A DNA stretch of 22,730 bases from a virus. Its lineage: Duplodnaviria; Heunggongvirae; Uroviricota; Caudoviricetes. Location: the IMG/VR virus record IMGVR_UViG_2675903433_000018, positions 1-22,730 of that record, one strand, 5' to 3'. Within the stretch, counting starts at the first letter, position 1. Each line of letters opens with the position of its first letter. A program made the translations under genes and the position numbers. Below, one piece after another: positions 5,661 to 22,730 of the stretch. The notes under the pieces were generated by a model that saw nothing but the letters and a program-made list of their open reading frames with translations, had not been told where the DNA came from and searched no databases.

Positions 5661-5685
5661 TTAAGGCCACAATTAGTGGCCTTAA
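5661..5685. terminator. Hairpin between convergent genes (possible bidirectional terminator)
   Basis: TTAAGGCCAC-aatta-GTGGCCTTAA, a 10-bp perfect stem, between the plus-strand operon end (5647) and the minus-strand gene ending at 5708. Confidence 0.4.
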
Positions 5686-5707
5686 ACAATGTGTTTTCTA
5701 CCTCGAT

Positions 5708-5923: not shown

Positions 5924-5953
5924 CTCATCCCTTGAGGAAAATTCAGCAACAAT

Positions 5954-6289: not shown

Positions 6290-6425
6290 AGCTAATTCCT
6301 TATTAACTGATTGGCAACGAGGTTACGCTGATCCCGCGGTGATGAATAGTAGCAAAGCGCACAAAAATCATCAGCGGTGGTTGATGTACATAACGCGTTT
6401 GCACCAAAGGTGCTTCTTTAATGTA

Positions 6426-6445
6426 TACTGTACAGATAAACAGTA
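6426..6445. promoter_or_regulatory. LexA box (SOS operator) between the divergent lxr-like gene and humD
   Basis: TACTGTACAGATAAACAGTA matches the CTGT-N8-ACAG core and the TACTGT…ACAGTA consensus; lies 19 bp upstream of the humD ATG. Confidence 0.7.
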
Positions 6446-6463
6446 TTTTTGAGGTAAAACGCT

Positions 6464-6853
6464 ATGGGTTTCCCTTCTCCTGCGGCGGATTATGTTGAAA
6501 GCCGAATTTCTCTTGATCAGCAGATAATTAGACATCCATCAGCAACCTACTTCATGCGGGCAGCTGATAGCCATCACCGTGAGGGAATATTGCAGGGTGC
6601 TTTGCTGGTGGTTGATTCCTCGCTTACTCCGGTTGATGGTTCTCTGCTTGTGTGCGCTATGGAGGGTGAATATCGCATAAAGAGATACAGGAAGTATCCG
6701 CGCCAGCACCTGGAGGATTTAAGCACCGGGAAGAAAGAGGCGTTACCAGTAGATGACGATGGTTACACGGGTAGTAATGCTGTTTTTGGTGTGATCACTC
6801 ATGTCATCAATGATGCCCGAAGTGGGGAATTTGATGATTGTCCGGTGATTTAA
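6464..6853 (+). CDS. humD: HumD, UmuD-prime homolog (translesion synthesis accessory)
   Basis: 129-aa protein matches P1 HumD / UmuD-prime-like sequence from memory; GAGG RBS; LexA box upstream. Confidence 0.85.
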   Translation: MGFPSPAADYVESRISLDQQIIRHPSATYFMRAADSHHREGILQGALLVVDSSLTPVDGSLLVCAMEGEYRIKRYRKYPRQHLEDLSTGKKEALPVDDDGYTGSNAVFGVITHVINDARSGEFDDCPVI

Positions 6854-6925
6854 GCTGCAAAGTGCTGGTGCTTTATGCCTGTGAAGTTTATAATTGTGTA
6901 CACATAACGAGTACACGAGGTGTTT

Positions 6926-7147
6926 ATGCAATCCATTAACTTCCGTACCGCGCGTGGCAACCTTTCTGAAGTGCTCAACAATGTTGAAGCCGGGGAAGAG
7001 GTTGAAATCACCCGCAGAGGCCGTGAGCCAGCAGTAATTGTTAGCAAGGCTACTTTTGAAGCCTACAAAAAAGCGGCGCTGGATGCCGAATTTGCATCCC
7101 TGTTTGACACCCTGGACTCCACCAACAAGGAACTGGTTAACCGATAA
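6926..7147 (+). CDS. phd: Phd antitoxin (prevents host death)
   Basis: 73-aa product [73 protein letters not shown] matches P1 Phd; the ORF track starts at GTG 6920, the true start is probably ATG 6926. Confidence 0.9.
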
Positions 7148-7527
7148 TGAGGCATATATCACCGGAAGAACTTATTGCGCTTCATGATGCGAATATAAGC
7201 CGCTACGGTGGCCTGCCGGGAATGTCAGATCCGGGTAGGGCAGAGGCCATTATCGGGAGAGTTCAGGCCAGAGTTGCCTACGAAGAGATCAGCGACCTTT
7301 TCGAAGTCTCCGCCACCTACCTGGTGGCTACAGCGAGAGGGCATATATTCAATGATGCCAATAAGCGTACCGCGCTAAACAGTGCGCTGTTATTTCTACG
7401 CCGTAACGGGGTGCAGGTATTTGATACACCTGAACTGGCAGACCTTACCGTAGGGGCTGCGACCGGAGAGATATCTGTATCTTCTGTCGCCGACACGTTA
7501 CGTAGATTGTATGGTTCCGCGGAGTAG
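7147..7527 (+). CDS. doc: Doc toxin (death on curing; Fic-family kinase)
   Basis: 126-aa product [25 protein letters not shown]… matches P1 Doc; ATG overlaps the phd stop (TAATG). Confidence 0.9.
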
Positions 7528-7531
7528 ATTA

Positions 7532-7711
7532 ATGGCACGTAAATACAACAAATTGTCCCGTGAAGCGTTAAAGATGCTTCTTGATGGCGTGAGTCGCCGC
7601 GAGGTAAAGCAATACCTGGTTGGTAAGCAAATTGGTGCCAGGACCGCTATTGCTGTGTTATGCCGTCAGGAAATGGTAGTGCTTAAACAGAGAATGCCGG
7701 GCAGCAGATAA
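7532..7711 (+). CDS. Small post-doc region protein (P1 pdc-like)
   Basis: GGAG RBS before ATG at 7532 (ORF track starts at 7511); position immediately downstream of doc. Confidence 0.55.
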   Translation: MARKYNKLSREALKMLLDGVSRREVKQYLVGKQIGARTAIAVLCRQEMVVLKQRMPGSR

Positions 7712-7738
7712 AGCCCAATCAGTGATGAAAGGTGTGAT

Positions 7739-8782
7739 GTGAAAGCCGTAATTACTCCCTTTGTACAAAAAGAGCTTGGCGTCGCCACATTCAAAGTGGA
7801 TCAGGAAGTCAGAAAGCTGGTGGAGGCTGGCCGTAAATTTATTATGGAGCCGGTGCCGCGTGAGTTAATCGAGCACATGGACGACGGCCTCGTTGTTTCC
7901 GAGCAAACTATGGCAACAAATGAGGCGTTGCAGCCGTTTTTTAACAGCGATGAACTGTTTCGCCGTATTGGTGGAATTGACGCGCTGGTGGCGTGGTTGC
8001 GCAGGAAAGAGGGGCAATGCCAGGCCGCAGATCGTAGCTGGTGTGACAACCATATTGTCCACGCAGAACGAGACAATAGCGCGGTGTTGTTGTGCTGGCA
8101 TCACGATAACCATTACCGGATGCGTGGTTTTAATGAGCTGAAAGAAACGCTGCATAATAATCGCGTTAACTGGATACTGGATGTCGCCCGTCAGGAAATG
8201 GGGCTTTCAGATGGCCATGATTTAAGTATTCAGGAACTGTGCTGGTGGGCTTTCATGCGCAACATGATGCACCTGATGCCGGAAGAAGTTTGCCGTATAT
8301 CAATAAATAAGATGAAAGCCGCAACGCAGGATAGCGGACCTCTGAAAGAGGCGGATATTCGCCCGTATGACGATCGCGCTACAGCATATGTTCAGATGAT
8401 GGAAGAACGCGCCGCGCCGATGCGTGCAAAAGTATGCCCTGTGGATGTTGACTCCGACCCTGGCATGGCGCATTTCAAAATACCAAAACTGCAATCGCTA
8501 AAATTACCTGAGTACATGGACTTTGTTGCTTCCCGTCCATGCTGTGGGTGTGGAGCTGCGGGAGCTGGCGCTCACATTACGCCTTATATCGTTCGTCATA
8601 GTCGATTATGCGCGCATGACATTTACGCAATTCCTCTGTGCCAGTCATGCCAGCGTGATATTGAGCGTGACCGCGATAATTGGGAGAAGACGCACGGTAG
8701 GCTGGCGATGCATCAACGATTGTTCTTTGATTACGCGCTTGGAGTCGGCGCTATCACAAGTCACTCGTCGAGCGTTAGATAA
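7739..8782 (+). CDS. Post-doc region protein (P1 pdc-like) with Cys-rich C-terminal segment
   Basis: 347-aa ORF starting GTG 7739; Cys cluster …[40 protein letters not shown]… suggests metal binding. Confidence 0.6.
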
Positions 8783-8783
8783 A

Positions 8784-8826
8784 ATTGCTCTAATGTATTG
8801 CTATTTATTTAATCGAGGGTATTATA
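8784..8826 (+). promoter_or_regulatory. C1-operator-like site overlapping a candidate promoter upstream of lpa
   Basis: ATTGCTCTAATGTATTG (8784-8800) matches the remembered C1 operator consensus ATTGCTCTAATAAATTT at 14/17; possible -35 TTGCTA and -10 TATTAT follow. Confidence 0.45.
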
Positions 8827-8870
8827 TTCCACGTTGATTAGTTGACATGGGCTAATCAGTAGGTGACAGG

Positions 8871-9323
8871 ATGTTACTTAACTGGCAGGGACGCCACTTC
8901 ATGGAAATAAATCACTCACGAATAACATCGTACGAGATTGCGGATTACATGATCCGCACTAAGTCTTTTCTATCAGCGAAAGAACTCGCAGCAATCCTTG
9001 AAAAGGAATACCCGCATCTGGATGTCGATAAGCGCGATGTTTATCTGCGCTTAAAGGCTATCGCTGTGTCTAAGTATTCGTCTGTTTTGATTGATGACAG
9101 TACACGCCCACGTAGATTTCAGATCCACTCTCTGAATCCTGAATTCTTTCGCCGTAGCCGCGCTCCGCGCCGGTTTGATGAAAAACTCCAGAACGAACTC
9201 TATATGACGCAGGACGAAAAGGAACGCCGGGAGCACCAGCCTTGGGTAATGGCGCGTCAACTTTTCAATAAGGTGGCCCGTCAGCACCGTCATTACGGTA
9301 ATGCCACATCCGCACGTATCTGA
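8871..9323 (+). CDS. lpa: Lpa, late promoter activator (P1 gene 10)
   Basis: 150-aa product matches P1 Lpa from memory; sits between the pdc genes and pacA as in P1; preceded by a C1-operator-like site. Confidence 0.75.
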   Translation: MLLNWQGRHFMEINHSRITSYEIADYMIRTKSFLSAKELAAILEKEYPHLDVDKRDVYLRLKAIAVSKYSSVLIDDSTRPRRFQIHSLNPEFFRRSRAPRRFDEKLQNELYMTQDEKERREHQPWVMARQLFNKVARQHRHYGNATSARI

Positions 9324-9408
9324 TTGATTGCTTGCCCGTTCCGGGCCTTTTGACATGTGACTTTCGTTACCCTCGCGTCAAAAAGAGTTTTTACGAAAGG
9401 AAGCATAA

Positions 9409-10602
9409 GTGACCTGGGACGATCACAAGAAGAATTTTGCTCGCCTGGCGCGAGATGGTGGTTACACCATCGCACAGTATGCCGCCGAGTTTAATCTTAA
9501 CCCTAATACCGCACGTCGTTATCTCCGTGCCTTCAAAGAAGACTCCAGGACTGCGGACAGCCGCAAGCCAAATAAGCCAGTCAGGAAGCCACTAAAAAGC
9601 ATGATCATTGATCACTCTAATGATCAACATGCAGGTGATCATATTGCGGCTGAAATAGCGGAAAAACAGAGAGTTAATGCCGTTATCAGTGCCGCAGTCG
9701 AGAATGCGAAGCGCCAAAATAAGCGCATAAATGATCGTTCAGATGATCATGACGTGATCACCCGCGCCCACCGGACCTTACGTGATCGCCTGGAACGCGA
9801 CACCCTGGATGATGATGGTGAACGCTTTGAATTCGAAGCTGGCGATTACCTGATAGATAACGTTGAAGCGCGGAAGGCCGCGCGCGCTATGTTGCGTCGG
9901 TCCGGGGCCGATGTTCTGGAAACCACTCTTCTTGAAAAGTCTCTTTCTCATCTCCTTATGCTGGAGAACGCCAGGGATACGTGTATTCGCCTGGTGCAGG
10001 AAATGCGCGATCAGCAAAAAGACGATGATGAAGGTACTCCGCCTGAATACCGTATCGCGAGCATGCTAAACAGCTGTTCCGCGCAGATAAGCAGTCTGAT
10101 CAACACCATTTACAGCATCCGGAATAACTATCGAAAAGAAAGCCGGGAGGCGGAAAAGCACGCTTTATCTATGGGGCAAGCTGGCATTGTTAAGCTGGCA
10201 TACGAACGAAAGCGTGAAAATAACTGGTCAGTGCTGGAAGCAGCTGAATTCATCGAGGCGCATGGTGGGAAAGTTCCGCCCCTGATGCTGGAGCAAATCA
10301 AAGCCGATCTGCGTGCTCCTAAGACCAATACCGATGATGAGGAAAGGCAAACAGCCGTCGGTGGCCCTTCTCTTGAAGATCTGGACAAAGTTGCGCGAGA
10401 ACGGGCCGCCAGCCGCCGCGCTGATGCCGCATTGTGGATTGAGCATCGTAGAGAAGAAATTGCCGATATCGTCGATACAGGTGGTTATGGTGATGTCGAT
10501 GCGGAAGGCATATCAAACGAAGCATGGCTTGAACAGGATCTGGACGAAAACGAGGAGGAAGACGAAGAAGTTACCCGCAAACTGTACGGGGATGATGATT
10601 AA
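9409..10602 (+). CDS. pacA: PacA, pac-cleavage terminase subunit
   Basis: 397-aa ORF starting GTG 9409 (MTWDDHKK…); contains the pac hexamer array internally; acidic C-terminus. Confidence 0.85.
9602..9760 (+). other. pac: pac packaging-initiation site: clusters of Dam-methylatable hexamers (4 x TGATCA, then TGATCG + 2 x TGATCA)
   Basis: TGATCA at 9602, 9609, 9621, 9636; TGATCG at 9732; TGATCA at 9744, 9755; this 4 + 3 layout inside pacA matches the P1 pac site. Confidence 0.8.
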
Positions 10603-12086
10603 TGGCCAGAAGTTGCGTAACGGACCCACGTTGGCGCGAGCTGGTGGCGCTATATCGTTATGACTGGATTGCGGCCGCTGATGTGTTGTTTGGGAAGACA
10701 CCAACCTGGCAGCAGGATGAGATCATTGAGTCCACGCAGCAGGACGGCAGTTGGACAAGTGTGACCTCCGGCCATGGTACTGGTAAGTCGGATATGACGA
10801 GTATCATTGCAATACTCTTCATCATGTTTTTCCCCGGCGCTCGCGTTATTCTGGTCGCTAACAAAAGACAGCAAGTCCTTGATGGTATTTTCAAATACAT
10901 AAAGAGCAATTGGGCTACTGCTGTTAGCAGATTCCCGTGGTTGTCGAAGTATTTCATTCTTACAGAAACGTCTTTTTTTGAGGTGACTGGCAAGGGTGTT
11001 TGGACAATATTGATAAAGTCCTGTCGCCCCGGAAATGAGGAGGCGTTGGCTGGTGAACACGCCGATCATCTCTTGTATATCATCGACGAAGCGTCGGGTG
11101 TGAGTGATAAAGCATTCAGTGTGATAACAGGTGCGCTGACCGGTAAGGATAACCGTATTCTGCTTCTTTCCCAGCCTACGCGACCTTCAGGCTATTTCTA
11201 CGATTCACACCACAGACTAGCTATTCGCCCGGGAAATCCTGATGGATTGTTTACTGCGATAATACTGAATAGTGAAGAATCTCCGCTTGTAGATGCAAAA
11301 TTTATACGAGCAAAACTTGCGGAGTATGGCGGTCGTGATAACCCCATGTACATGATCAAAGTACGTGGTGAATTTCCCAAATCTCAAGATGGCTTTCTTC
11401 TTGGTCGTGATGAGGTTGAGCGGGCGACGCGGCGAAAGGTCAAGATTGCCAAAGGATGGGGCTGGGTTGCATGTGTTGACGTTGCTGGTGGCACAGGACG
11501 AGATAAGTCCGTTATTAATATCATGATGGTGTCCGGCCAGCGAAATAAACGCCGTGTAATCAACTATCGTATGCTGGAATACACAGACGTTACAGAAACG
11601 CAGTTAGCCGCCAAGATTTTCGCAGAATGTAACCCAGAACGGTTCCCGAACATAACCATAGCTATTGATGGCGATGGCTTGGGGAAATCGACGGCTGATC
11701 TGATGTACGAACGCTATGGTATTACCGTCCAGCGTATCCGCTGGGGTAAAAAGATGCACAGCCGTGAAGATAAAAGCCTTTATTTCGATATGCGCGCTTT
11801 CGCGAATATTCAGGCGGCAGAAGCTGTAAAATCAGGGCGTATGCGGCTTGATAAGGGGGCTGCGACTATAGAGGAAGCATCAAAGATACCGGTAGGGATA
11901 AATTCCGCAGGTCAATGGAAGGTGATGTCAAAGGAAGATATGAAGAAAAAACTCAACCTGCACTCACCGGACCATTGGGATACATATTGTTTCGCTATGT
12001 TGGCGAACTATGTTCCCCAAGATGAAGTGCTTAGCGTCGAAGACGAAGCGCAGGTTGATGAAGCTCTGGCATGGCTTAATGAATGA
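10602..12086 (+). CDS. pacB: PacB, large terminase subunit
   Basis: 494-aa ORF, ATG overlapping the pacA stop (TAATG); size and position match P1 PacB. Confidence 0.85.
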
Positions 12087-12089
12087 ATA

Positions 12090-12106
12090 TTTGCTCTAAT
12101 AAATTG
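12090..12106 (+). promoter_or_regulatory. C1-operator-like 17-mer immediately after pacB, overlapping a candidate promoter
   Basis: TTTGCTCTAATAAATTG (15/17 to remembered consensus); followed by TTGTGT-17-TACATT (12104-12132). Confidence 0.45.
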
Positions 12107-12138
12107 TGTTTTTTAACTACCGATGTTACATTGAGCCT

Positions 12139-12259
12139 GACCTCTTGCGCCTTGAGGCATTTTCGGTTTATGCTTATCAGGCACCTCATTAAAACGGGTG
12201 CCGGGATTGGCCTCCCGCTTAAGTCTAAGGCGATACAGACGCCGCTCGCGTCTTTTTTT
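12139..12259 (+). ncRNA. Putative small structured RNA (c4-like antisense repressor candidate) ending at an intrinsic terminator
   Basis: Candidate promoter upstream; nested hairpins (GCCTGA…TCAGGC enclosing CCTC…GAGG); ends at GACGC-cgctc-GCGTC + T7 (12238-12259); contains ATTGGCCTCC, complementary to the downstream RBS region, and a copy of GTCTAAGG. Confidence 0.3.
12238..12259 (+). terminator. Rho-independent terminator
   Basis: GACGC-cgctc-GCGTC followed by TTTTTTT. Confidence 0.6.
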
Positions 12260-12424
12260 GTATCGGCGTACACGCACACCTCTACAATGGTGGGCTGTAT
12301 GGGGCTACCTTCGGGTAGGCTGGTTACCTTGGACGCCAGTAAGGCCAACTCCGTACAGTCCACCGCCAGCAAGATTGGTCTCTTCTGCGGTGGTTACATA
12401 CCAACGTCTAAGGAGGCTGCCAAT

Positions 12425-12646
12425 ATGGCTACTATCCCTACCCCAACTCATCCTGAATTTATCTGGCGCTTTTACTCCTGCCAAAAACGTCACTATCACT
12501 TCGTTATTGCACCAACAGAAGATGAGGCTCGCTCTCAGCTTCCTGACGCCCCATGTATTTTCTCTGCCCGTTTTTCCACTGATTCACGCAATTCTCTCAG
12601 TTACTGGTGCCTCCCTGTTAACGCTTCTGCTCAGGAGGGACTATGA
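12425..12646 (+). CDS. Small 73-aa protein translationally coupled to the antirepressor gene (icd-like by position and size)
   Basis: AAGGAGG RBS 8 nt upstream of ATG 12425; stop overlaps the ant start (ATGA); the longer ORF-track entries 12083-12646 and 12198-12668 run across the terminator and are unlikely to be real. Confidence 0.55.
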   Translation: MATIPTPTHPEFIWRFYSCQKRHYHFVIAPTEDEARSQLPDAPCIFSARFSTDSRNSLSYWCLPVNASAQEGL

Positions 12647-13761
12647 GAACGTCATTAGTCACCCGTGAAGAGATGATCGAGGCAATTGAACAGCACACAA
12701 TCTGTATCAGCACCAGGGATATACCTGGCGTTATTGCCAACTACTTCATGATCACCAAACAACTTTACCGGAGAAAGGACAAGAACGCGGTTCACCGTAT
12801 CCTGTTGTCTGATATCCGCGAATACCTGCTCGAACAGGGTCATCTGAATTACGCAACCGTCGCAGCCGAAGCACGCAAGGAGGCACACAGAATGAAAGCA
12901 AATAACGTTAAATTAGAAAAAATTCATGCACCTTCAGTTCAGGAATCGGAGCTGGTGGTTGTTCAGAATCAGTCTGATGAAATTCCCGTTCTGGAATGGC
13001 AGGGAGTGCGTGTAGTGACAACCGAGACTCTTGCGAGAGGGTATGGGACAGAAACAATCCGTATTCGCCAAAATCATCATGAGAACAAAGTACGCTTTGT
13101 TGAAGGGAAGCACTTTTTCAAAGTTGAAGGAGAATCATTGCGCGAGTTGAAGCACAGAGTAGCTTTAAACTACTCTGTAAAAATTGCTCGCAATGTTCGC
13201 TCACTCACCCTCTGGACAGAACGCGGCGCAGCCCGCCACGCTAAAATGCTCGAAACCGATCAGGCATGGGCATTCTTTGAAAAACTGGAAGACAGCTACT
13301 TCCGGCAAAAAGAACAGCAACCGGTTGCAATCCCCCAGACGCTTCCAGAAGCTCTGCGCCTGGCTGCCGAACTGGCTGAACAAAAGCAACTTCTGGAACA
13401 GAAAGCCCACCAGCTAAATCAGCAGCTGGTGGCCGCCGCTCCTAAGGTCGATTTTGCCGACCGGGTATCAGTGGCCAAGGGGATCCTGATTGGGAATTTT
13501 GCAAAGGTTGTTGGACTTAAGCAAAACGCGCTGTTTGTCTGGTTACGGGAGAACGGCATCCTGATAGCGTCCGGTGGACGTAAAAATGTGCCGTTCCAGC
13601 AGTACATCAACGCGGGGTATTTCACGGTGAAAGAAGTGGTGCTGGATGATGAAGATGGCTACCAGATACGGTTGACGCCTCAATTAACGGGTAAAGGCCA
13701 GCAGTGGTTGACGCGTAAACTGCTCGATGCTGGCTTGTTAAAACCGGTGGCGGCTGAATAA
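12643..13761 (+). CDS. ant: Phage antirepressor (ORF6N/BRO-N-like central domain plus KilAC/Ant C-terminal domain), Ant1-like
   Basis: 372-aa ORF; central region (VLEWQGVRVVTTETLARGYG…KHFFKVEGESL…) resembles the AntA/ORF6N domain and the C-terminus (…NVPFQQYINAGYFTVKEV…TPQLTGKGQQWL…) resembles KilAC/Ant; AGGAGG RBS. Confidence 0.7.
   Translation: MRTSLVTREEMIEAIEQHTICISTRDIPGVIANYFMITKQLYRRKDKNAVHRILLSDIREYLLEQGHLNYATVAAEARKEAHRMKANNVKLEKIHAPSVQESELVVVQNQSDEIPVLEWQGVRVVTTETLARGYGTETIRIRQNHHENKVRFVEGKHFFKVEGESLRELKHRVALNYSVKIARNVRSLTLWTERGAARHAKMLETDQAWAFFEKLEDSYFRQKEQQPVAIPQTLPEALRLAAELAEQKQLLEQKAHQLNQQLVAAAPKVDFADRVSVAKGILIGNFAKVVGLKQNALFVWLRENGILIASGGRKNVPFQQYINAGYFTVKEVVLDDEDGYQIRLTPQLTGKGQQWLTRKLLDAGLLKPVAAE
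12892..13761 (+). CDS. In-frame internal start giving a shorter antirepressor isoform (Ant2-like)
   Basis: AAGGAGG RBS 8 nt upstream of in-frame ATG 12892 (MKANNVKL…), giving a 289-aa product; P1 ant is described as producing two in-frame products. Confidence 0.4.
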   Translation: MKANNVKLEKIHAPSVQESELVVVQNQSDEIPVLEWQGVRVVTTETLARGYGTETIRIRQNHHENKVRFVEGKHFFKVEGESLRELKHRVALNYSVKIARNVRSLTLWTERGAARHAKMLETDQAWAFFEKLEDSYFRQKEQQPVAIPQTLPEALRLAAELAEQKQLLEQKAHQLNQQLVAAAPKVDFADRVSVAKGILIGNFAKVVGLKQNALFVWLRENGILIASGGRKNVPFQQYINAGYFTVKEVVLDDEDGYQIRLTPQLTGKGQQWLTRKLLDAGLLKPVAAE

Positions 13762-13769
13762 TGGAAGAA

Positions 13770-13791
13770 TGCCCGGTTGATGCCGGGCATA
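13770..13791. terminator. Hairpin between convergent ant and c1 (bidirectional terminator candidate)
   Basis: ATGCCCGG-ttgat-GCCGGGCAT in the 32-bp gap between the two stop codons. Confidence 0.45.
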
Positions 13792-13793
13792 AT

Positions 13794-14645
13794 TTATTGC
13801 GCGCTTTCGGGGTTGTCGTTTACTGGCTGCCCCTTCTTGGTTTTACGGCTGCGCGCAACTGATGCGGCTGACTTAACCTTTTTCTCTTCGCGAGTGATGG
13901 CAATTTGTTTTTTTACATTTTCAATATCTGCCAGGCGATATATTTTTGCCTGCGGCCAGCGGTCGCAGATGATCGGTTCTATAGAGTCATAAAGGCTAAA
14001 TTTTGCTTTCTCGAATTCACCGTTGATGATGATTCCATCACGGAGAGTTTCATCGCAGATAAACACACCACACAGCGGCACATGGTAACTAACTGATTTA
14101 CCATCATTGTAGTTAGGGCTACTGGAAATGTAATGGACGCGCAGCATTGTTTCGCTAAAGCCGTGTACACGCATACGGAATTTTTCATCCTCCGGGTACT
14201 GCTTCATTAGCTCTTTTGTTGCTTCCAGGTTCTCTATGTATTTCGCACTGTGCTCATTGATCCCCGCGCTTTTCTGGATGCGAATGTCCTTATCAATCAG
14301 ATGAATAATGCGGCCAGCGGTCATGTTGACGCTGTTCACAGCTTCTGTCTGATAAGTTGTAACCTTACGCACACCGCGAAGGATGTTAGGCACTGGATAT
14401 AAAATAGTCTTTGGGATATTGAGGTCTGGGTACTGTTCCAGTTCCCGCGCCATTAAAGTCCATTTATCAATTTCAGCCTGAATGCTGTCCGTTTCTTTGA
14501 ACGGCAGAACGACAACCGGGCGTACAGGACGACCGTCGCTGGCGGCATCAACGTGTTGGGCGCGTGCAACAGCTTTTTTTAGAAAGAGATCCCTGAAGCT
14601 GACGAACTCCTGGTACAGTTGTTCGCCGTAGACATAATTTATCAT
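13794..14645 (-). CDS. c1: C1 repressor of lysogeny
   Basis: 283-aa product (MINYVYGEQLYQEFVSFRDLFLKK…) matches P1 C1 from memory; GGAGGAGG RBS. Confidence 0.9.
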   Translation of the reverse strand: MINYVYGEQLYQEFVSFRDLFLKKAVARAQHVDAASDGRPVRPVVVLPFKETDSIQAEIDKWTLMARELEQYPDLNIPKTILYPVPNILRGVRKVTTYQTEAVNSVNMTAGRIIHLIDKDIRIQKSAGINEHSAKYIENLEATKELMKQYPEDEKFRMRVHGFSETMLRVHYISSSPNYNDGKSVSYHVPLCGVFICDETLRDGIIINGEFEKAKFSLYDSIEPIICDRWPQAKIYRLADIENVKKQIAITREEKKVKSAASVARSRKTKKGQPVNDNPESAQ

Positions 14646-14667
14646 TGATCCTCCTCCAGAATTGACA

Positions 14668-14710
14668 TGGCCAACAACTCACAGCGGATTACACTGGGAG
14701 TTGTTGGCCA
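14668..14710 (-). other. Perfect 13-bp inverted repeat (stem-loop) in the coi-c1 intercistronic region
   Basis: TGGCCAACAACTC-(17 nt)-GAGTTGTTGGCCA. Confidence 0.5.
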
Positions 14711-14738
14711 CCATTATAGAAGGATCCAACGAAAATAA

Positions 14739-14755
14739 TAGATTTATTAGTGCAT
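14739..14755 (-). promoter_or_regulatory. Weak C1-operator-like site upstream of c1
   Basis: Minus-strand reading approximates ATTGCTCTAATAAATTT at about 14/17. Confidence 0.3.
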
Positions 14756-14965
14756 TTATTGTGAGTCTGGCTGGTTAGTGGCCATGAGATATTCGATTGT
14801 GTCAGTGAGATCATCCAGGTCGTCTTGGGTGATGCGGTACTCCTGATTGGATATCTTTGAGTAGTGTTCAGCAATGGCGCGGGCAGCGTCGGTTTCGGCA
14901 GGGTCTACAGATAAAGCGTTAGAGCAATGTCTAACGTCGTCGATGGTTGGTTGAATGAAAGCCAT
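14756..14965 (-). CDS. coi: Coi, C1 inactivator
   Basis: 69-aa product MAFIQPTIDDVRHCSNALSVDPAETDAARAIAEHYSKISNQEYRITQDDLDDLTDTIEYLMATNQPDSQ matches P1 Coi; directly upstream of c1 on the same strand. Confidence 0.85.
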   Translation of the reverse strand: MAFIQPTIDDVRHCSNALSVDPAETDAARAIAEHYSKISNQEYRITQDDLDDLTDTIEYLMATNQPDSQ

Positions 14966-15202
14966 AATTATGCCTCACTGTATTGACAACACAGAGCCTG
15001 AAGCTCTGACCTACTGTTTCACCCATGATCCATGCTGGGGTAATCTAACAACATTGCGCTGTGTGTAAGATGAGCAATGCATAGCTGTAATGCCGTTGTA
15101 TAAGGTTTCCCTGTTTGCTCATTTCCTTCTGAGCCGCTCTACAACGCTGAAGACACATTAAATAGTGAATCCAAAGTCGTATTACGAAACGGCGGCAAAC
15201 TA

Positions 15203-15219
15203 TAATTTATTAGAGCAAT
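15203..15219 (-). promoter_or_regulatory. C1 operator (minus orientation)
   Basis: Reverse complement reads ATTGCTCTAATAAATTA (16/17 to consensus). Confidence 0.55.
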
Positions 15220-15284
15220 TGTCAAACAACTATGAAAAACAATCCAGTTTTTGGCTGGTGGAGTGGGATTTTTCTCTCAAAATT

Positions 15285-15301
15285 TATTGCTCTAATAATT
15301 C
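15285..15301 (+). promoter_or_regulatory. C1-operator-like site (plus orientation)
   Basis: ATTGCTCTAATAATTCT, about 14/17 to consensus; about 45 bp upstream of loxP. Confidence 0.45.
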
Positions 15302-15345
15302 TTGATTTTTATGCGCAGCTGGACGTAAACTCCTCTTCGGACCTA

Positions 15346-15379
15346 ATAACTTCGTATAGCATACATTATACGAAGTTAT
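15346..15379 (+). other. loxP: loxP site-specific recombination site
   Basis: Exact ATAACTTCGTATA-GCATACAT-TATACGAAGTTAT (13-bp inverted arms, 8-bp asymmetric spacer). Confidence 0.97.
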
Positions 15380-15451
15380 CTTAAGGGTTATTGAACATGA
15401 TTAATTTACCTGTAAATCCATACAGTTCAATACCTTATCAGGTCAAATAGT

Positions 15452-15545
15452 GATCACTTGATCATTTGATCAAGGTTGCGCTACGTAAAATCTGCGAAAT
15501 GTTGGCAGTGTTAGTGCTCCAGATTTCGCGTAGCGCACTTAGCAC
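15452..15545 (+). promoter_or_regulatory. GATC (Dam) triplet cluster plus long imperfect inverted repeat in the region upstream of cra/cre
   Basis: GATC at 15452, 15460, 15468 (TGATCACTTGATCATTTGATCA); GCGCTACG…CGAAAT / ATTTCGCGTAGCGC inverted repeat at about 15478-15540. Confidence 0.4.
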
Positions 15546-15568
15546 CACCAATCAATCAGAGGTGAAAA

Positions 15569-15790
15569 ATGGGATATTCAGCTGCTAAAGTGTCCACTCA
15601 TCTTGAGCTTGAGAAAAACCGTGGTTACTGGCGGGCAAAATGGTTTGAGCGTGATAGTTACCAACTGTCATTATCTCGCGGTGAAGAGAAAATAGAACGC
15701 ACGCGCGGTCGCTGGCGTTTCTATGACGAGAACCATAACCAGGTAAAGGCAGAGCCAATCCTGTACACTCTGCTGAAAACAATAATTTAA
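15569..15790 (+). CDS. Hypothetical small basic protein between loxP and cra
   Basis: 73-aa ORF with GAGGTG RBS; Arg/Trp-rich. Confidence 0.45.
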   Translation: MGYSAAKVSTHLELEKNRGYWRAKWFERDSYQLSLSRGEEKIERTRGRWRFYDENHNQVKAEPILYTLLKTII

Positions 15791-15809
15791 CTTGATCATG
15801 AGGTGATGA

Positions 15810-16205
15810 ATGTTTAATGGCCTGACAGATGCCAAGGTAAACGCCTTACTGAACGACGCAAAACAAAAAGCTGCTAACCCTGGAACGAATGAAAATGAAC
15901 GTGCTATGGCTGTTGCAATTTGGGAGTTAGCAGAAGAAGTAAAGCGAAACCGCTTACTATACACTCGGGTTTACCAGCAATTTGATGGTGCGAGCTGGAT
16001 AGATATCGAAGAGGCTGAATATGCAACATGCAAAAAAGAAAAAAAGATTGTTCGGATTTTGCATAAAGCAGCAACCCCAATCACTGTAGAAATCCCCGAT
16101 CACAGATATTTCGAGAACGATGATCTACCAGGGGATGTGATTCGAATTATTGATGAGATACTTCATGAACAAGGCTTAACTGTTAAAATCACGCATAATA
16201 AATGA
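15810..16205 (+). CDS. cra: Cre-associated protein (cra-like), translationally coupled to cre
   Basis: 131-aa ORF, GAGGTGA RBS; stop overlaps the cre ATG (ATGA). Confidence 0.55.
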   Translation: MFNGLTDAKVNALLNDAKQKAANPGTNENERAMAVAIWELAEEVKRNRLLYTRVYQQFDGASWIDIEEAEYATCKKEKKIVRILHKAATPITVEIPDHRYFENDDLPGDVIRIIDEILHEQGLTVKITHNK

Positions 16206-17233
16206 CTAATTCGTTAACCGTTCACCAAAATTTGCCTGCATTGCCGGTCGATGCAACGAGTGATGAGGTTCGCAAGAACCTGATGGACATGTTCAGGGAT
16301 CGCCAGGCGTTTTCTGATCATACCTGGAAAATGCTTCTGTCCGTTTGCCGGTCGTGGGCGGCATGGTGCAAGTTGAATAACCGGAAATGGTTTCCCGCAG
16401 AACCTGAAGATGTTCGCGATTACCTTCTATATCTTCAGGCGCGTGGTCTGGCAGTAAAAACTATCCAGCAACATTTGGGCCAGCTAAACATGCTTCATCG
16501 TCGGTCCGGGCTGCCACGACCAAGTGACAGCAATGCTGTTTCACTGGTCATGCGACGGATCCGAAAAGAAAACGTTGATGCCGGTGAGCGTGCAAAACAG
16601 GCGCTGGCGTTCGAACGCACTGATTTCGACCAGGTTCGTTCACTCATGGAAAATAGCGATCGCTGCCAGGATATACGTAATCTGGCATTTCTGGGGATTG
16701 CTTATAACACCCTGTTACGTATAGCCGAAATTTCTAGGATCAGGGTTAAAGATATCTCACGTACTGACGGTGGGAGAATGTTAATCCATATTGGCAGAAC
16801 GAAAACGCTGGTTAGCACCGCTGGTGTAGAGAAGGCACTTAGCCTGGGGGTAACTAAACTGGTTGAGCGATGGATTTCTGTCTCTGGTGTAGCTGATGAT
16901 CCGAATAACTACCTGTTTTGCCGCGTCAGAAAAAATGGTGTTGCCGCGCCATCATCCACCAGCCAGCTATCAACTCGCGCCCTGGAAGGGATTTTTGAAG
17001 CAACTCACCGATTGATTTACGGGGCAAAAGATGACTCTGGTCAGCGATACCTGGCCTGGTCTGGACATAGTGCCCGTGTCGGTGCCGCGCGAGATATGGC
17101 CCGCGCCGGAGTTTCAATACCGGAGATCATGCAAGCTGGTGGCTGGACCAACGTAAATATTGTCATGAACTACATTCGTAACCTGGATAGTGAAACGGGG
17201 GCAATGGTGCGCCTGCTGGAAGATGGCGATTAG
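16202..17233 (+). CDS. cre: Cre tyrosine recombinase
   Basis: 343-aa product nearly identical to canonical Cre (MTNSLTVHQNLPALPVDATSDEVRKNLMDMFRDRQAF…LLEDGD); a few substitutions relative to my remembered reference (S2T, L4S, E to D in …AFS[E/D]HTWK…, A to S in …IAEI[A/S]RIR…, A to S in …APS[A/S]TSQL…). Confidence 0.97.
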   Translation: MTNSLTVHQNLPALPVDATSDEVRKNLMDMFRDRQAFSDHTWKMLLSVCRSWAAWCKLNNRKWFPAEPEDVRDYLLYLQARGLAVKTIQQHLGQLNMLHRRSGLPRPSDSNAVSLVMRRIRKENVDAGERAKQALAFERTDFDQVRSLMENSDRCQDIRNLAFLGIAYNTLLRIAEISRIRVKDISRTDGGRMLIHIGRTKTLVSTAGVEKALSLGVTKLVERWISVSGVADDPNNYLFCRVRKNGVAAPSSTSQLSTRALEGIFEATHRLIYGAKDDSGQRYLAWSGHSARVGAARDMARAGVSIPEIMQAGGWTNVNIVMNYIRNLDSETGAMVRLLEDGD

Positions 17234-17249
17234 CCGTTCATTTTTACTT

Positions 17250-17266
17250 GATTGCTCTAATTATTT
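17250..17266 (+). promoter_or_regulatory. C1-operator-like site downstream of cre / upstream of the next gene
   Basis: ATTGCTCTAATTATTTG, about 14/17 to consensus. Confidence 0.4.
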
Positions 17267-17283
17267 GATATTTATGGTGACAC

Positions 17284-17595
17284 ATGCGGAAGGATTTCAA
17301 AATAGACGGAAAATATGTGGTGCTGTCTGTAAGCTCTCAAATTCAGTCACCATCTGTCATTGTCACCGTAAAATTGAGCGATAGGATGCCTGATATCGAC
17401 TCGATATCTGTTGCGTTCCCCGTTAAAAGCATGCGGAGTGCTGAACATTTTGTGATGAATGCAACGGAGGAGGAAGCGCGGCGAGGGCTTACTAGAGTGA
17501 TGGCGGAATTTGGCGAACTCCTGGGTAAGGTAAACAATGCCCTTTCAATCAGTTCAGCAAGATCCAAAGCGTTAACAGCTTCCATGATGAAATAA
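17284..17595 (+). CDS. Hypothetical protein; positional candidate for P1 c8
   Basis: 103-aa ORF between cre and ref; weak RBS; assignment by position only. Confidence 0.45.
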   Translation: MRKDFKIDGKYVVLSVSSQIQSPSVIVTVKLSDRMPDIDSISVAFPVKSMRSAEHFVMNATEEEARRGLTRVMAEFGELLGKVNNALSISSARSKALTASMMK

Positions 17596-17599
17596 AAAA

Positions 17600-17618
17600 G
17601 CCTGGCAAGGAGCCAGGC
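17600..17618. terminator. Hairpin with adjacent A/T run (terminator-like; orientation ambiguous)
   Basis: GCCTGGC-aagga-GCCAGGC; the T-run is on the minus-strand side (AATAAAAAA on plus). Confidence 0.35.
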
Positions 17619-17735
17619 TGCACAAAAGAGCGGGTTTGTATTCCGCATCCAATCAATCAAGAAAGAGTATAGCACACAGGTACTGAAGTGAAAAAATGTG
17701 ATTCTCGATTAACAAAATATCTACCATTGCTCTAA

Positions 17736-17759
17736 TTGATTGCTATAATTGAGCCGCAG
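17736..17759 (+). promoter_or_regulatory. C1-operator-like site overlapping a TATAAT -10 upstream of ref
   Basis: ATTGCTCTAATTGATTG followed by TATAAT at 17754-17759; ref is known to be C1-controlled in P1. Confidence 0.45.
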
Positions 17760-17809
17760 TTTTTGTCAACTACGAAGACGTTGCCATTACTTAACTCCTT
17801 GACATCATT

Positions 17810-17835
17810 GGCGGCCATTAGGCCGCCTTTTTTTT
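17810..17835 (+). terminator. Intrinsic-terminator-like hairpin in the ref leader, immediately 5-prime of the ref start codon
   Basis: GGCGGCC-atta-GGCCGCC followed by TTTTTTTT, ending 6 nt before ATG 17841. Confidence 0.5.
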
Positions 17836-17840
17836 GCCAT

Positions 17841-18401
17841 ATGAAAACAATCGAACAAAAACTTGAACAGCGCCGCGAGTGGCAGAAGGCAGCCAGAGAA
17901 CGAGCGATCGCTCGGCAACGGGAAAAGTTGGCTGACCCCGCCTGGAGAGAATCGCAATATCAGAAAATGCGGGATTCTATCGACCGCCGTATCGCTAAAC
18001 AGAAAGAGCGCCCACCAGCCAGCAAAACGCGGAAAAGCGCGGTAAAAATAAAATCTCGTGGCTTGAAGGGGAGAACACCAACGGCGGAGGAACGGCGCAT
18101 CGCCAATGCTCTTGGCGCTCTCCCCTGCATTGCCTGCTATATGCATGGAGTAATATCTAATGAGGTGTCTCTGCACCATATCGCCGGTCGTACCGCGCCG
18201 GGTTGTCATAAAAAGCAATTGCCACTTTGTAGATGGCACCACCAGCATGCAGCTCCGGCTGAAGTAAGAGAAAAATACCCATGGCTGGTCCCTGTTCATG
18301 CCGATGGTGTGGTTGGAGGCAAGAAAGAATTCACCTTGCTGAACAAGTCAGAGATGGAGTTACTGGCTGATGCCTATGAGATGGCAAACATCATGCACTA
18401 A
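17841..18401 (+). CDS. ref: Ref, recombination enhancement function (HNH-type nuclease)
   Basis: 186-aa product MKTIEQKLEQRREWQKAARERAIARQREKL… matches P1 Ref from memory; the ORF track extends upstream to 17736 but ATG 17841 gives the expected length. Confidence 0.85.
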   Translation: MKTIEQKLEQRREWQKAARERAIARQREKLADPAWRESQYQKMRDSIDRRIAKQKERPPASKTRKSAVKIKSRGLKGRTPTAEERRIANALGALPCIACYMHGVISNEVSLHHIAGRTAPGCHKKQLPLCRWHHQHAAPAEVREKYPWLVPVHADGVVGGKKEFTLLNKSEMELLADAYEMANIMH

Positions 18402-18437
18402 TAAATATATTATTTTTAATGATAAATGATTGACAAC

Positions 18438-18460
18438 TGACAAGTGACTTCAGTCAGAAT
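18438..18460 (+). promoter_or_regulatory. Putative Lpa-dependent late promoter element (shared AAGTGACT motif)
   Basis: ACAAGTGACTTCAGTCAGAAT upstream of the 18590 gene; the same core GTGACT recurs upstream of pacA (9357) and of the putative portal gene (19773). Confidence 0.35.
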
Positions 18461-18552
18461 CATCACACGCCCGGTACGGATGGATCCCTTTTCAAATATT
18501 CCATGGACGGCACAGTCTGAGTACCGGGCGCTACCTTCAGTTGTATTGCTAA

Positions 18553-18578
18553 GCCGCCGCTGGTGGCTTTTCTTTTTT
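18553..18578 (+). terminator. Terminator-like hairpin in the leader of the downstream gene
   Basis: GCCGCC-gct-GGTGGC (one G-U pair) followed by TTTTCTTTTTT, ending 12 nt before ATG 18590. Confidence 0.4.
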
Positions 18579-18589
18579 GTAGGGGCGCT

Positions 18590-19231
18590 ATGGATAAGAA
18601 AATATGCGTTGTTTCAATGAGCGTCGGCAAACCGGCGTCAATGACTGCTGCATGGATCAACAATGAGCTGATCATGGCTGAGCGGACCAGCTACCCTGAA
18701 CGCCGCCGCGATATGGAACTCCAGCTGCTGCGCGAATTGCGAGAAAAAGAGGAAAAGGGTTTTATCGTGCTGGTGGAAGAGGAAAACAGCTTTATTACCG
18801 GTCGAGTTGGCCAGCGTGTAAGGTTGCGCGATCCCTTCATGAACGGCAGGCCGGTACTAATTGAAGCAATGCAGATTTACAAGGAGCTGGAACGCCAGAA
18901 AGCGATCAAGTTACCGCGCAAGGAATCCGGCAAATACATCCTCCACCAAAGCATCTTCGATTCCGAACACGATAAAAAAGGCGATGAATTTTTCAACATC
19001 AACTGGAGCGAAATAACAACAGAGCATGTTCTGACATTGTTATGCTGTTTCGCAACGGAATACAACAATGTTGCCAGCGCCGACTACATCAGGGCAATGG
19101 CTGGAGAAGTTGAGGCCCGCCAGGAACCATCGTTACTAAGACCTCTGATTAACATAATTCACGGAACCCAAACACTGGCGCAAAAACAAGTACCACAAGG
19201 GGAATTGACGGGTAAAGGTAATTATCTCTGA
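18590..19231 (+). CDS. Hypothetical protein; positional candidate for P1 mat (particle maturation)
   Basis: ATG at 18590 with AGGGG RBS (ORF track begins at GTG 18563); follows ref as mat does in P1; no recognisable catalytic motif. Confidence 0.5.
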   Translation: MDKKICVVSMSVGKPASMTAAWINNELIMAERTSYPERRRDMELQLLRELREKEEKGFIVLVEEENSFITGRVGQRVRLRDPFMNGRPVLIEAMQIYKELERQKAIKLPRKESGKYILHQSIFDSEHDKKGDEFFNINWSEITTEHVLTLLCCFATEYNNVASADYIRAMAGEVEARQEPSLLRPLINIIHGTQTLAQKQVPQGELTGKGNYL

Positions 19232-19270
19232 AAGATGCCCGGCGATAGACCGGGCAAAAGGGCGGAAAGT

Positions 19271-19519
19271 TTAATCTGCATTCAGGAGCAATGCGTTATC
19301 TATGATGATCTGCTCCCATTCTTCGAATGCCCGATCGCGGACCCCCTGGGGAACACTGTTTGTTTTGAAATCAACGACTGTCCGCCATTTCCCGTCCGGA
19401 CGGTACATGCGCAGAGCTTTACTGCCCCCTTCCCTTCGCACCTCAACGTTATGCTTGTCAGCAAACTCTTGTAATGCTCGTAGCGTCCCATGCTTTACTG
19501 TGTAGTATCGCTTTTTCAA
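19271..19519 (-). CDS. Small 82-aa basic protein of unknown function on the opposite strand (start TTG)
   Basis: Minus-strand ORF MKKRYYTVKHGTLRALQEFADKHNVEVRREGG…, GGAGAG RBS; lies in the short interval between the mat-like and portal-like genes. Confidence 0.4.
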   Translation of the reverse strand: MKKRYYTVKHGTLRALQEFADKHNVEVRREGGSKALRMYRPDGKWRTVVDFKTNSVPQGVRDRAFEEWEQIIIDNALLLNAD

Positions 19520-19764
19520 GTTTTCTCTCCAGCCTGTGCCAAGGCTTTGACGTCGAAATTATGTCCTATTCGGTTTTATTGTATCAGATAGTGTGGACAT
19601 ATTATTTCACGTCCGGCGTAGTCGGTCATAGCTTTTGCCTTCCACCTTTTCCACGCCGTATCTAATCGGCGCCCGATGAAATGTTATTGCACTAATATAT
19701 TTCAATATTTCGCTGACACTTGAACAGCGAAACACCCCCATAGATAGCTTGTTCATTGGTAATC

Positions 19765-19790
19765 CTTAACAAGTGACTAGTGTTAAATTC
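19765..19790 (+). promoter_or_regulatory. Putative Lpa-dependent late promoter element upstream of the portal-like gene
   Basis: AACAAGTGACTAGTGTTAAAT, same AAGTGACT core as at 18443, followed by a TAAAT -10-like element. Confidence 0.35.
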
Positions 19791-19822
19791 CGTTCAAACA
19801 CGATGCGAATTATTCTAATTAA

Positions 19823-22553
<2,731 letters not shown>

Positions 22554-22598
22554 CCACCAAAAATAACCCCGGCGGCTGCCGGGGTATCTGAAATCACT

Positions 22599-22621: not shown

Positions 22622-22730
22622 AATTTAATCACTCAGCCGCTACTGGTTTTAACAAACCAGCATCAAGTAGCTTGCGAGTTAACCACTGCTGGCCTTTACC
22701 CGTTAATTGGGGCGTCAGCCGTATCTGGTA

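What the first reader, a model, noticed from the sequence alone, without database searches (positions are those of the whole stretch)
9351..19790. Recurrent GTGACT-containing motif upstream of three late-type genes
Seen in sequence: ATGTGACTTTCG (9355-9366, upstream of pacA), AAGTGACTTCAG (18443-18454, upstream of the mat-like gene) and AAGTGACTAGTG (19771-19782, upstream of the portal-like gene). P1 late promoters are activated by Lpa through a conserved element replacing the -35; I cannot recall its exact consensus, so this is a candidate only.
Basis: partly seen in the sequence, partly recalled or inferred. Interest (0 to 1): 0.4.

Follow-up and report, generated by a model that had tools for sequence, protein, structure and literature searches.

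The report
Three known P1 late promoters

Summary
The window is a P1-like plasmid prophage of E. coli. The three quoted sites exist; site 2 is off by one base. The bare hexamer GTGACT is not enriched (8 matches, 7.6 expected). The real element is longer: (A/G)AC, a 9-bp near-palindrome AAGTGACTT, 4 nt, then a -10 hexamer.

The three sites are base-for-base identical to the late promoters LPpac, LPmat and LPpro annotated in the P1 GenBank record. A weight matrix built only from six other P1 late promoters ranks them 1st to 3rd of about 45,000 window positions. No canonical -35 is present at 16-18 nt. The activator gene lpa is intact (149/150 identical) directly upstream of LPpac.

In Cronobacter phage JK004 (proteins 67-86% identical) the same element sits upstream of the pacA, mat and prt homologues. 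In phage D6 (Lpa 31% identical) a different box, AAATCACAAACT, occupies the equivalent positions.

Mechanism, from the literature: Lpa binds the box centred near -22 and, with host SspA, recruits sigma70 RNA polymerase.

Verdict: interpretation supported, already known, low interest. The only unexplained item is a conserved leader ending in a terminator-like hairpin between LPmat and mat.

The parts
9351..9373 (+). LPpac late promoter: tgAC, box ATGTGACTT (9355-9363), spacer tcgt, -10 TACCCT (9368-9373). Inferred transcription start near 9380. Drives pacA-pacB.
   Evidence: Identical to the P1 LPpac annotation. Matrix score 20.6, rank 3. Conserved in JK004 as taacGTGTGACTTgcgtTACCCT, 56 nt upstream of its pacA, amid diverged flanks.
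18438..18460 (+). LPmat late promoter: tgAC, box AAGTGACTT (18442-18450), spacer cagt, -10 CAGAAT (18455-18460). Inferred transcription start near 18467.
   Evidence: Identical to the P1 LPmat annotation ('former LP2'). Matrix score 22.8, rank 1. In relatives with unrelated upstream flanks, similarity resumes at the TTGACA just upstream. JK004 has cgacAAGTGACTTtctgCACAAT.
19767..19789 (+). LPpro late promoter: taAC, box AAGTGACTA (19771-19779), spacer gtgt, -10 TAAATT (19784-19789). Inferred transcription start near 19796. Drives prt-pro.
   Evidence: Identical to the P1 LPpro annotation. Matrix score 22.1, rank 2. In portal relatives about 82% identical, 1-2 of the 15 box and -10 positions change, against 35-37 of the 101 other upstream positions.
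8871..9323 (+). lpa, the late promoter activator gene
   Evidence: 149/150 identical to P1 Lpa. Matches PHROG 1704 'Lpa-like transcriptional activator', E = 8e-85.
8784..8825 (+). C1 operator Olpa (8784-8800, ATTGCTCTAATGTATTG) overlapping the sigma70 promoter Plpa (8798-8825). This places lpa under prophage repressor control.
   Evidence: Two substitutions in the 100 nt upstream of lpa relative to P1, none in the operator or promoter hexamers. P1 annotation. Promoter-like match TTGCTA-16-TATTAT.
9334..9351 (+). Hairpin GCCCG-ttc-CGGGC followed by CTTTT, just after the lpa stop and abutting LPpac. Probable lpa terminator (inferred).
   Evidence: Read from the sequence. Free energy -7.8 kcal/mol, z = -1.8. 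JK004 has a different, stronger hairpin plus T-run at the same place (-17.6 kcal/mol, z = -2.9).
9409..12086 (+). pacA (9409-10602) and pacB (10602-12086), the packaging operon served by LPpac
   Evidence: 98.7% identical DNA to P1 pacAB. PHROG terminase families.
18392..18435 (.). C1 operator Omat (18392-18409, on the - strand in P1) and a TTGACA -35 (18430-18435) that shares the CAGAAT -10 with LPmat at a 19-nt spacing (P1's predicted sigma70 promoter Pmat). Together these give dual early/late control of mat.
   Evidence: 100% identical to P1 over this stretch. P1 annotation.
18467..18589 (+). mat leader: stem CGCCCGGTAC (18468-18477) / GTACCGGGCG (18521-18530), and a terminator-like hairpin AAGCCGCC-gct-GGTGGCTT followed by TTCTTTTTT (18551-18578).
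   Evidence: Terminator scan. Hairpin -11.6 kcal/mol, z = -2.4. Equivalent hairpins in JK004 and D6. Whole-leader fold is not significant, z = -1.6.
18590..19231 (+). mat (213-aa form starting at ATGGATAAG)
   Evidence: PHROG 1837 matched end to end, 1-213 to 1-212 of 212. P1's annotated upstream ATG (window 18480) is out of frame here because of a GGGGG to GGGG change. The run length is polymorphic: 4 G in 39 loci, 5 G in 28.
19832..22553 (+). prt (portal, 19832-21541) and pro (head processing, about 21534-22553), the operon served by LPpro
   Evidence: 97.9% identical DNA to P1 17093-20065. PHROG portal family, E = 6e-261. P1 annotation.

Best explanation
The three sites are the orthologues, in a P1-like plasmid prophage of E. 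coli, of phage P1's late promoters LPpac, LPmat and LPpro.

Each consists of a 9-bp near-palindromic box (consensus AAGTGACTT, usually preceded by AC) centred about 22 nt upstream of the inferred transcription start. A fixed 4-nt spacer and a sigma70-type -10 hexamer follow. There is no usable -35 at the canonical spacing.

Mechanism, taken from the literature and not tested here: after the C1 repressor is lost, lpa is transcribed from the C1-controlled promoter Plpa. Lpa binds the box sequence-specifically. Together with the RNA-polymerase-associated host protein SspA it lets sigma70 holoenzyme initiate. This switches on packaging (pacA-pacB), the portal and head-processing genes (prt-pro) and mat late in lytic growth. 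mat can additionally be read early from an overlapping C1-controlled sigma70 promoter.
For: Shown here:
- The three sites are identical to the annotated P1 promoters over box, spacer, -10 and flanks.
- A matrix built from six non-homologous P1 late promoters ranks them 1-3 in the window.
- In P1 itself the nine canonical annotated late promoters are the nine best of about 190,000 positions.
- The sigma70 scan reports no + strand -35/-10 promoter at any of the three sites. By direct reading, the hexamers 16-18 nt upstream of each -10 match TTGACA at 0-1 of 6 positions.
- Lpa is intact, and its operator and promoter are conserved.
- The downstream genes are terminase, portal/head-processing and mat.
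- In JK004, 8 of the 9 top matrix hits lie 47-113 nt upstream of homologues of the first genes of P1's late operons, including pacA, mat and prt.
- In D6 (Lpa 31% identical) the P1 box is absent from late operons. A different box, AAATCACAAACT, occupies the equivalent positions: all 9 matches with at most 1 mismatch are intergenic and co-oriented upstream of late genes. The box therefore co-varies with the activator.

From the literature:
- P1 has 11 late promoters with a 9-bp inverted repeat as the Lpa site (PMC10695390).
- Lpa is a sequence-specific DNA-binding activator acting through SspA, and SspA itself does not bind late-promoter DNA (PMC1891329).
- Late genes depend on Lpa and on host SspA (PMC8198154 and PMC8201110).
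Against: - No transcription or binding data exist for this particular element; function is inferred from identity to P1.
- I could not read the primary P1 papers (Lehnherr 1991/1992, Lobocka 2004, Hansen 2003). The experimental status of each individual promoter rests on the GenBank annotation, where only LP23 is labelled 'predicted', and on my own recollection.
- Most relatives retrieved are 96-100% identical, so conservation of LPpac among them says little.
- The LPpro footprint is modest: Fisher p = 0.016-0.07 per sequence, and the sequences are not independent.
- The LPmat -10 (CAGAAT) and the LPpac -10 (TACCCT) are weak matches to TATAAT.
Confidence: 0.95

Rival explanations
1. Chance recurrence: a short hexamer that happens to lie upstream of three genes.
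For: GTGACT alone occurs 8 times against 7.6 expected, and five copies lie in coding sequence.
Against: The shared element is 19-23 nt long with fixed spacing. It is found exactly only at these three sites. An independent matrix picks it as ranks 1-3. It is conserved at the same gene positions in JK004.
Confidence: 0.01
2. Ordinary activator-independent sigma70 promoters; the shared box is incidental.
For: Each site has a -10-like hexamer. LPmat overlaps a perfect TTGACA at a 19-nt spacing, annotated in P1 as the predicted sigma70 promoter Pmat. For mat, part of the transcription may therefore be Lpa-independent.
Against: No -35 lies at 16-18 nt at any of the sites (direct reading). The -10 hexamers are weak. 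The box is shared with all the other P1 late promoters and co-varies with Lpa in D6. The literature assigns Lpa dependence to P1 late promoters.
Confidence: 0.03
3. Binding sites for a different protein, for example the C1 repressor or the packaging machinery.
For: The box is a near-palindrome, as many operators are. A C1 operator lies about 35 nt upstream of LPmat.
Against: C1 operators have a different sequence (ATTGCTCTAATAAATTT type, as seen at 8784-8800 and 18392-18409) and are annotated separately. The pac cleavage site lies inside pacA, about 330 nt downstream of LPpac. The fixed 4-nt distance to a -10 and the orientation towards late genes fit a promoter element.
Confidence: 0.01

Closest known systems
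Phage P1 late promoters LPpac, LPmat (former LP2) and LPpro, as annotated in GenBank AF234172 (Lobocka et al. 2004 genome record)
   Same: Identical sequence over box, spacer and -10. Same flanking genes, same orientation, same activator gene next door.
   Different: Nothing in the promoters themselves. The genomic context differs. res-mod and most of darB are missing between mat and LPpro, so LPmat and LPpro are 1.3 kb apart here instead of 14.6 kb. An immI-like module is inserted between pacB and c1.
The other P1 late promoters (LPs, LPsit, LPdar, LPlyz, LP23, LP26/LPpmgL, LPhot)
   Same: Same architecture: (A/G)AC + AAGTGACTT-like box + 4 nt + TAnnnT.
   Different: They lie in parts of the P1 genome outside this window. 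LPhot (9-nt spacer) would be expected here, but its region is replaced by a primase-like ORF.
Phage T4 middle promoters (MotA box replacing the -35, with AsiA)
   Same: Works alike in outline: a phage activator binds an element that takes the place of the -35, and host sigma70 polymerase uses the -10 (own knowledge).
   Different: Unrelated proteins. The MotA box is centred near -30. The mechanism is sigma appropriation through AsiA rather than an SspA co-activator.
Francisella MglA-SspA-PigR virulence activation
   Same: An SspA-family protein bound to RNA polymerase serves as the contact for a DNA-bound activator. P1 Lpa/SspA is cited as the precedent (PMC1891329).
   Different: A cellular regulon with different DNA elements; not a phage late switch.
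Phage D6 late-operon upstream box AAATCACAAACT (seen here; I could not check whether it is published)
   Same: Same positions relative to prt, mat, R, lydA and gp23 homologues. Also followed at a short fixed distance by a -10-like hexamer.
   Different: Different box sequence, not palindromic, about 3-nt spacer. The cognate Lpa is only 31% identical.

Membership tests
P1-type Lpa-dependent late promoter | 9-bp inverted-repeat box (consensus AAGTGACTT) centred near -22 | tested here: met
   ATGTGACTT, AAGTGACTT and AAGTGACTA match 8/9, 9/9 and 8/9. The box centre is 22 nt upstream of the inferred start (7 nt after the -10).
P1-type Lpa-dependent late promoter | Fixed 4-nt spacer to a sigma70-type -10 hexamer | tested here: met
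   The spacers tcgt, cagt and gtgt are followed by TACCCT, CAGAAT and TAAATT, the same as the P1 annotation.
P1-type Lpa-dependent late promoter | No functional -35 at canonical spacing | tested here: met
   No + strand sigma70 match at the sites. Hexamers at 16-18 nt match TTGACA at 0-1 of 6 positions by direct reading. LPmat has a TTGACA at 19 nt, which is the separately annotated Pmat.
P1-type Lpa-dependent late promoter | Located upstream of, and oriented towards, a late (morphogenesis, packaging or lysis) operon | tested here: met
   The sites lie upstream of pacA-pacB, mat and prt-pro, all on the + strand.
P1-type Lpa-dependent late promoter | Cognate activator Lpa encoded in the same genome | tested here: met
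   lpa at 8871-9323 is 149/150 identical to P1 Lpa, with its C1 operator and promoter conserved.
P1-type Lpa-dependent late promoter | Positional orthology with annotated P1 promoters | tested here: met
   100% identity to LPpac, LPmat and LPpro within colinear alignments.
P1-type Lpa-dependent late promoter | Transcription dependent on Lpa and host SspA, with late timing | not testable with these tools
   Known for P1 from the literature only.
Canonical sigma70 promoter | TTGACA-like -35 at 16-18 nt from a TATAAT-like -10 | tested here: not met
   Not reported at any of the three sites on the + strand.
C1 repressor operator | 17-bp ATTGCTCTAATAAATTT-type sequence | tested here: not met
   The boxes bear no resemblance to it. 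Real operators are present separately at 8784-8800 and 18392-18409.

The most novel reading that the evidence does not exclude
LPmat differs from the other late promoters. It feeds a conserved leader of about 125 nt that ends in an intrinsic-terminator-like hairpin immediately before the mat ribosome-binding site.

The distance from box to mat ATG is 148, 158 and 157 nt in the window, JK004 and D6, against 47-113 nt for the other late operons. All three lineages keep a hairpin plus T-run there with different stem sequences. The reading frame that joins P1's annotated mat ATG to the gene body is not conserved.

The reading is that mat has a second, post-initiation control layer, either attenuation or antitermination. 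Antitermination has been suspected but never demonstrated in P1. It would also mean the first 37 codons of P1's annotated Mat are not coding.
Probability: 0.25. Interest if true: 0.45.

Novelty: already known. Interest (0 to 1): 0.1.

Why it matters
It matters little as a discovery. P1's late promoters and their Lpa box have been described since the early 1990s and are annotated in the reference genome.

The practical value is for annotation. The window's phage keeps the complete late switch: lpa under C1 control plus three intact late promoters, despite heavy mosaicism around them. This suggests that its late-gene switch is still functional.

The comparative results give an independent check that the box is the activator's recognition element. 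The same box marks late operons in JK004, and a different box sits at the same positions in D6.

Tried and rejected
- Bare-hexamer enrichment: none.
- LPhot equivalent in the window: none. The hot region has no DNA similarity to P1, and the only weak match (CAGTTACTT at 5345) lies inside a primase-like ORF.
- Variable-spacer scan (3-10 nt): it added only weak hits. These are 3873-3900; 16196-16220, overlapping the cre start; 8748-8770 (-), inside pdcB; and 15340-15362, which is loxP. None was considered a promoter.
- Reverse-strand use of the palindromic box, as in P1's LP26/LPpmgL pair: no reverse-strand hit at the three sites.
- IMG/VR relatives of PacA: too close (96-100% identical) to give a footprint for LPpac.
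- Scan of species genomes with Lpa: only 3 loci, uninformative.
- Rfam: nothing at the promoters or in the mat leader. The only leader match was a chance lncRNA hit, E = 0.62.
- Whole mat-leader fold: not significant, z = -1.6.
- P1-derived matrix on D6: negative for late operons. This led to the D6-specific box.
- Primary papers (Lobocka 2004, Lehnherr 1991, Gilcrease & Casjens 2018): not held.
Full report
WHAT THE WINDOW IS. The window is a mosaic P1-like plasmid prophage. Positions 5722-12084 are 97.8% identical to P1 86842-93204 (lxr to pacB). Positions 13795-19200 match c1-coi-lox-cre-c8-ref-mat, and 19613-22585 match the 5' end of darB plus prt-pro. The closest whole matches are E. coli plasmids of about 100 kb, for example NZ_AP027192 (99.3% identity over 89% of the window).

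THE OBSERVATION. The three strings are present; the second is one base off (18442-18453). GTGACT by itself is at chance level: 8 matches against 7.6 expected. The shared 9-mer AWGTGACTW occurs exactly three times against 0.46 expected. The 21-nt pattern that includes the preceding AC, a 4-nt spacer and a YANNNT hexamer matches exactly only at these three sites.

IDENTITY. The P1 record AF234172 annotates eleven late promoters, each with a '-22 region' and a -10. Extracted and aligned, they give (A/G)AC + AAGTGACTT + 4 nt + TAnAAT; LPhot has a 9-nt spacer. LPpac, LPmat and LPpro are base-for-base the window's three sites, inside colinear alignments that are 100% identical around the promoters.

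To avoid circularity I built a weight matrix from six P1 late promoters that lie outside the region homologous to the window: LPlyz, LPdar, LPs, LPsit, LP23 and LP26. It ranks the three sites first to third of about 45,000 positions (22.8, 22.1 and 20.6 bits; the next is 12.9; the random maximum averages 12.0). In P1 itself the nine canonical annotated promoters are the nine best positions of about 190,000. Leave-one-out ranks are 3-10.

PROMOTER ANATOMY. None of the sites has a -35 at 16-18 nt (and direct reading). LPmat is overlapped by a TTGACA at a 19-nt spacing and preceded by a C1 operator, both annotated in P1. This gives mat dual early/late control. I recall that being shown experimentally by Lehnherr et al. 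1992, but I could not re-read the paper.

The activator gene lpa is intact (149/150 identical; PHROG 'Lpa-like transcriptional activator') and keeps its C1 operator and promoter. A small hairpin plus T-run lies between the lpa stop and LPpac. JK004 has a different, stronger hairpin in the same place. This fits an lpa terminator that leaves pacA dependent on its own late promoter (inferred).

COMPARATIVE EVIDENCE. Relatives in IMG/VR are mostly 96-100% identical and add little for LPpac.
- LPpro: portal relatives about 82% identical keep the box (AAGTGACCA) and the -10, with 1-2 changes in 15 positions against 35-37 in the other 101.
- LPmat: loci with unrelated upstream flanks resume similarity at the TTGACA just upstream of the box, so the promoter travels with the gene.
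- Cronobacter phage JK004 (Lpa 67%, PacA 70%, Mat 68%, Prt 82% identical) is the best test. Eight of the nine top matrix hits in its 94-kb genome lie 47-113 nt upstream of the homologues of mat, R, gp26, gp23, pacA, prt, lyz and pmgC.
- Phage D6 (Lpa 31% identical) lacks the P1 box at its late operons. A different element, AAATCACAAACT followed after about 3 nt by a -10-like hexamer, is found there. All nine matches with at most one mismatch are intergenic and co-oriented. They lie 50-70 nt upstream of the lysis, portal, tail and capsid genes and 157 nt upstream of mat.

The box thus follows the activator, as expected for its recognition site.

MECHANISM. From the literature, not tested here: P1 has 11 late promoters whose 9-bp inverted repeat is the Lpa-binding site (PMC10695390). 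Lpa is a sequence-specific DNA-binding activator that works with the RNA-polymerase-associated host protein SspA, which does not itself bind late-promoter DNA (PMC1891329, citing Hansen et al. 2003). Late genes for lysis, structure and packaging depend on Lpa and on SspA (PMC8198154 and PMC8201110). The inferred order of events in this element is:
1. The C1 repressor is lost.
2. lpa is transcribed from Plpa.
3. Lpa binds the boxes centred near -22.
4. SspA-assisted initiation by sigma70 holoenzyme switches on pacAB, mat and prt-pro.

RIVALS. Chance is excluded. An ordinary sigma70 promoter is unlikely given the missing -35 and the co-variation in D6, although Pmat may contribute at mat. A different binding protein is unlikely, because C1 operators and the pac site are distinct and annotated elsewhere.

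WHAT REMAINS UNEXPLAINED. The stretch between LPmat and mat is unusual. The window has GGGG where P1 has GGGGG, which puts P1's annotated mat ATG (18480) out of frame. The run is polymorphic among relatives: 4 G in 39 loci, 5 G in 28. JK004 carries further frame-breaking indels. The PHROG Mat profile and the JK004 and D6 annotations all correspond to the short protein starting at 18590.

The leader contains a 10-bp stem with one compensatory change in JK004. It also has a terminator-like hairpin plus T-run at 18551-18578. JK004 and D6 have equivalent hairpins with different stems: -11.6, -11.2 and -14.4 kcal/mol; z = -2.4, -4.7 and -3.2. In D6 the gene upstream of mat is divergent, so the hairpin is not the terminator of an upstream gene. 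Three lineages are too few for a covariation statistic, and the whole-leader fold is not significant, so this is only a lead. Antitermination in P1 is suspected but unproven, and mat was one of five essential genes missed by a CRISPRi screen.

VERDICT. It is already known and annotated in P1, so interest is low.

Noticed in passing
window 18467-18590: The mat leader contains a conserved stem and a terminator-like hairpin plus T-run (18551-18578) directly before the mat start. P1's annotated upstream ATG (18480) is out of frame here (GGGG against GGGGG near 18582), and the run length is polymorphic among relatives (39 loci against 28). Equivalent hairpins exist in JK004 and D6. The box-to-ATG distance is about 150 nt in all three lineages.
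   Followed up: partly
window 9334-9351: A hairpin GCCCG-ttc-CGGGC followed by CTTTT lies between the lpa stop and LPpac. JK004 keeps a different, stronger hairpin plus T-run at the same place. It is probably the lpa terminator.
   Followed up: partly
window 12085-13794: An insert between pacB and c1, absent there in P1. It holds isrK (12181-12258) and a C4 antisense RNA (12283-12370) by Rfam, an ORF with similarity to P1 icd, and a 372-aa Ant antirepressor. This is an immI-type immunity module, 69-81% identical to P1's own immI.
   Followed up: partly
window 19200-19620: The type III restriction-modification genes res and mod are absent. lxc is kept (19271-19519, - strand), ulx has an internal deletion, and darB is reduced to its first ~144 nt. 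As a result LPmat and LPpro are only 1.3 kb apart.
   Followed up: partly
window 1-5721: Most of this stretch has no DNA similarity to P1. The hot gene and its late promoter LPhot are replaced by a primase-like ORF (5096-5647), preceded by two paralogous small ORFs (4456-4821 and 4821-5126, both PHROG 3797).
   Followed up: partly
window 22639-22730: The last 92 bases are 100% identical to the 3' end of P1 ant1 in inverted orientation, directly after pro. This indicates a rearrangement relative to P1, where the lysis genes follow pro.
   Followed up: no
window 8748-8770 (- strand): This is the best non-promoter match to the late-promoter matrix (cgacGAGTGACTTgtgaTAGCGC, 12.9 bits). It lies antisense inside pdcB, has a poor -10, and scores at the level expected by chance.
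   Followed up: no
L004 about 21776-21798 (P1 76798, - strand): An unannotated tenth-best P1 site, caacAAGTGACTGgtgaTAACCT (19.8 bits), lies inside the 5' part of gene 7. It may be an internal late promoter ahead of gene 24.
   Followed up: no
L250/L251 (phage D6), e.g. record positions 38135, 72120, 25241, 54144: A D6-specific box, AAATCACAAACT, followed after ~3 nt by a -10-like hexamer, lies upstream of D6's late operons. All 9 matches with at most 1 mismatch are intergenic and co-oriented. I could not check whether this is published.
   Followed up: partly
L251 about 25092-25114 (D6 71096, + strand): A single perfect P1-type late promoter (tgacAAGTGACTTtcatTAATCT) sits in D6 between gp26 and mat, facing two tiny ORFs. 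It could be a relic or a recombination import.
   Followed up: no
one of L005-L084: One IMG/VR relative has an unrelated sequence in place of LPpac, up to about 25 nt before the pacA start.
   Followed up: no
L248 about 23650-23671 (JK004, - strand): A strong late-promoter match, tgacAAATGACCTggcgGAAAAT (18.6 bits), lies next to the 3' end of gene_26 and upstream of gene_25. It corresponds to no annotated P1 late promoter.
   Followed up: no
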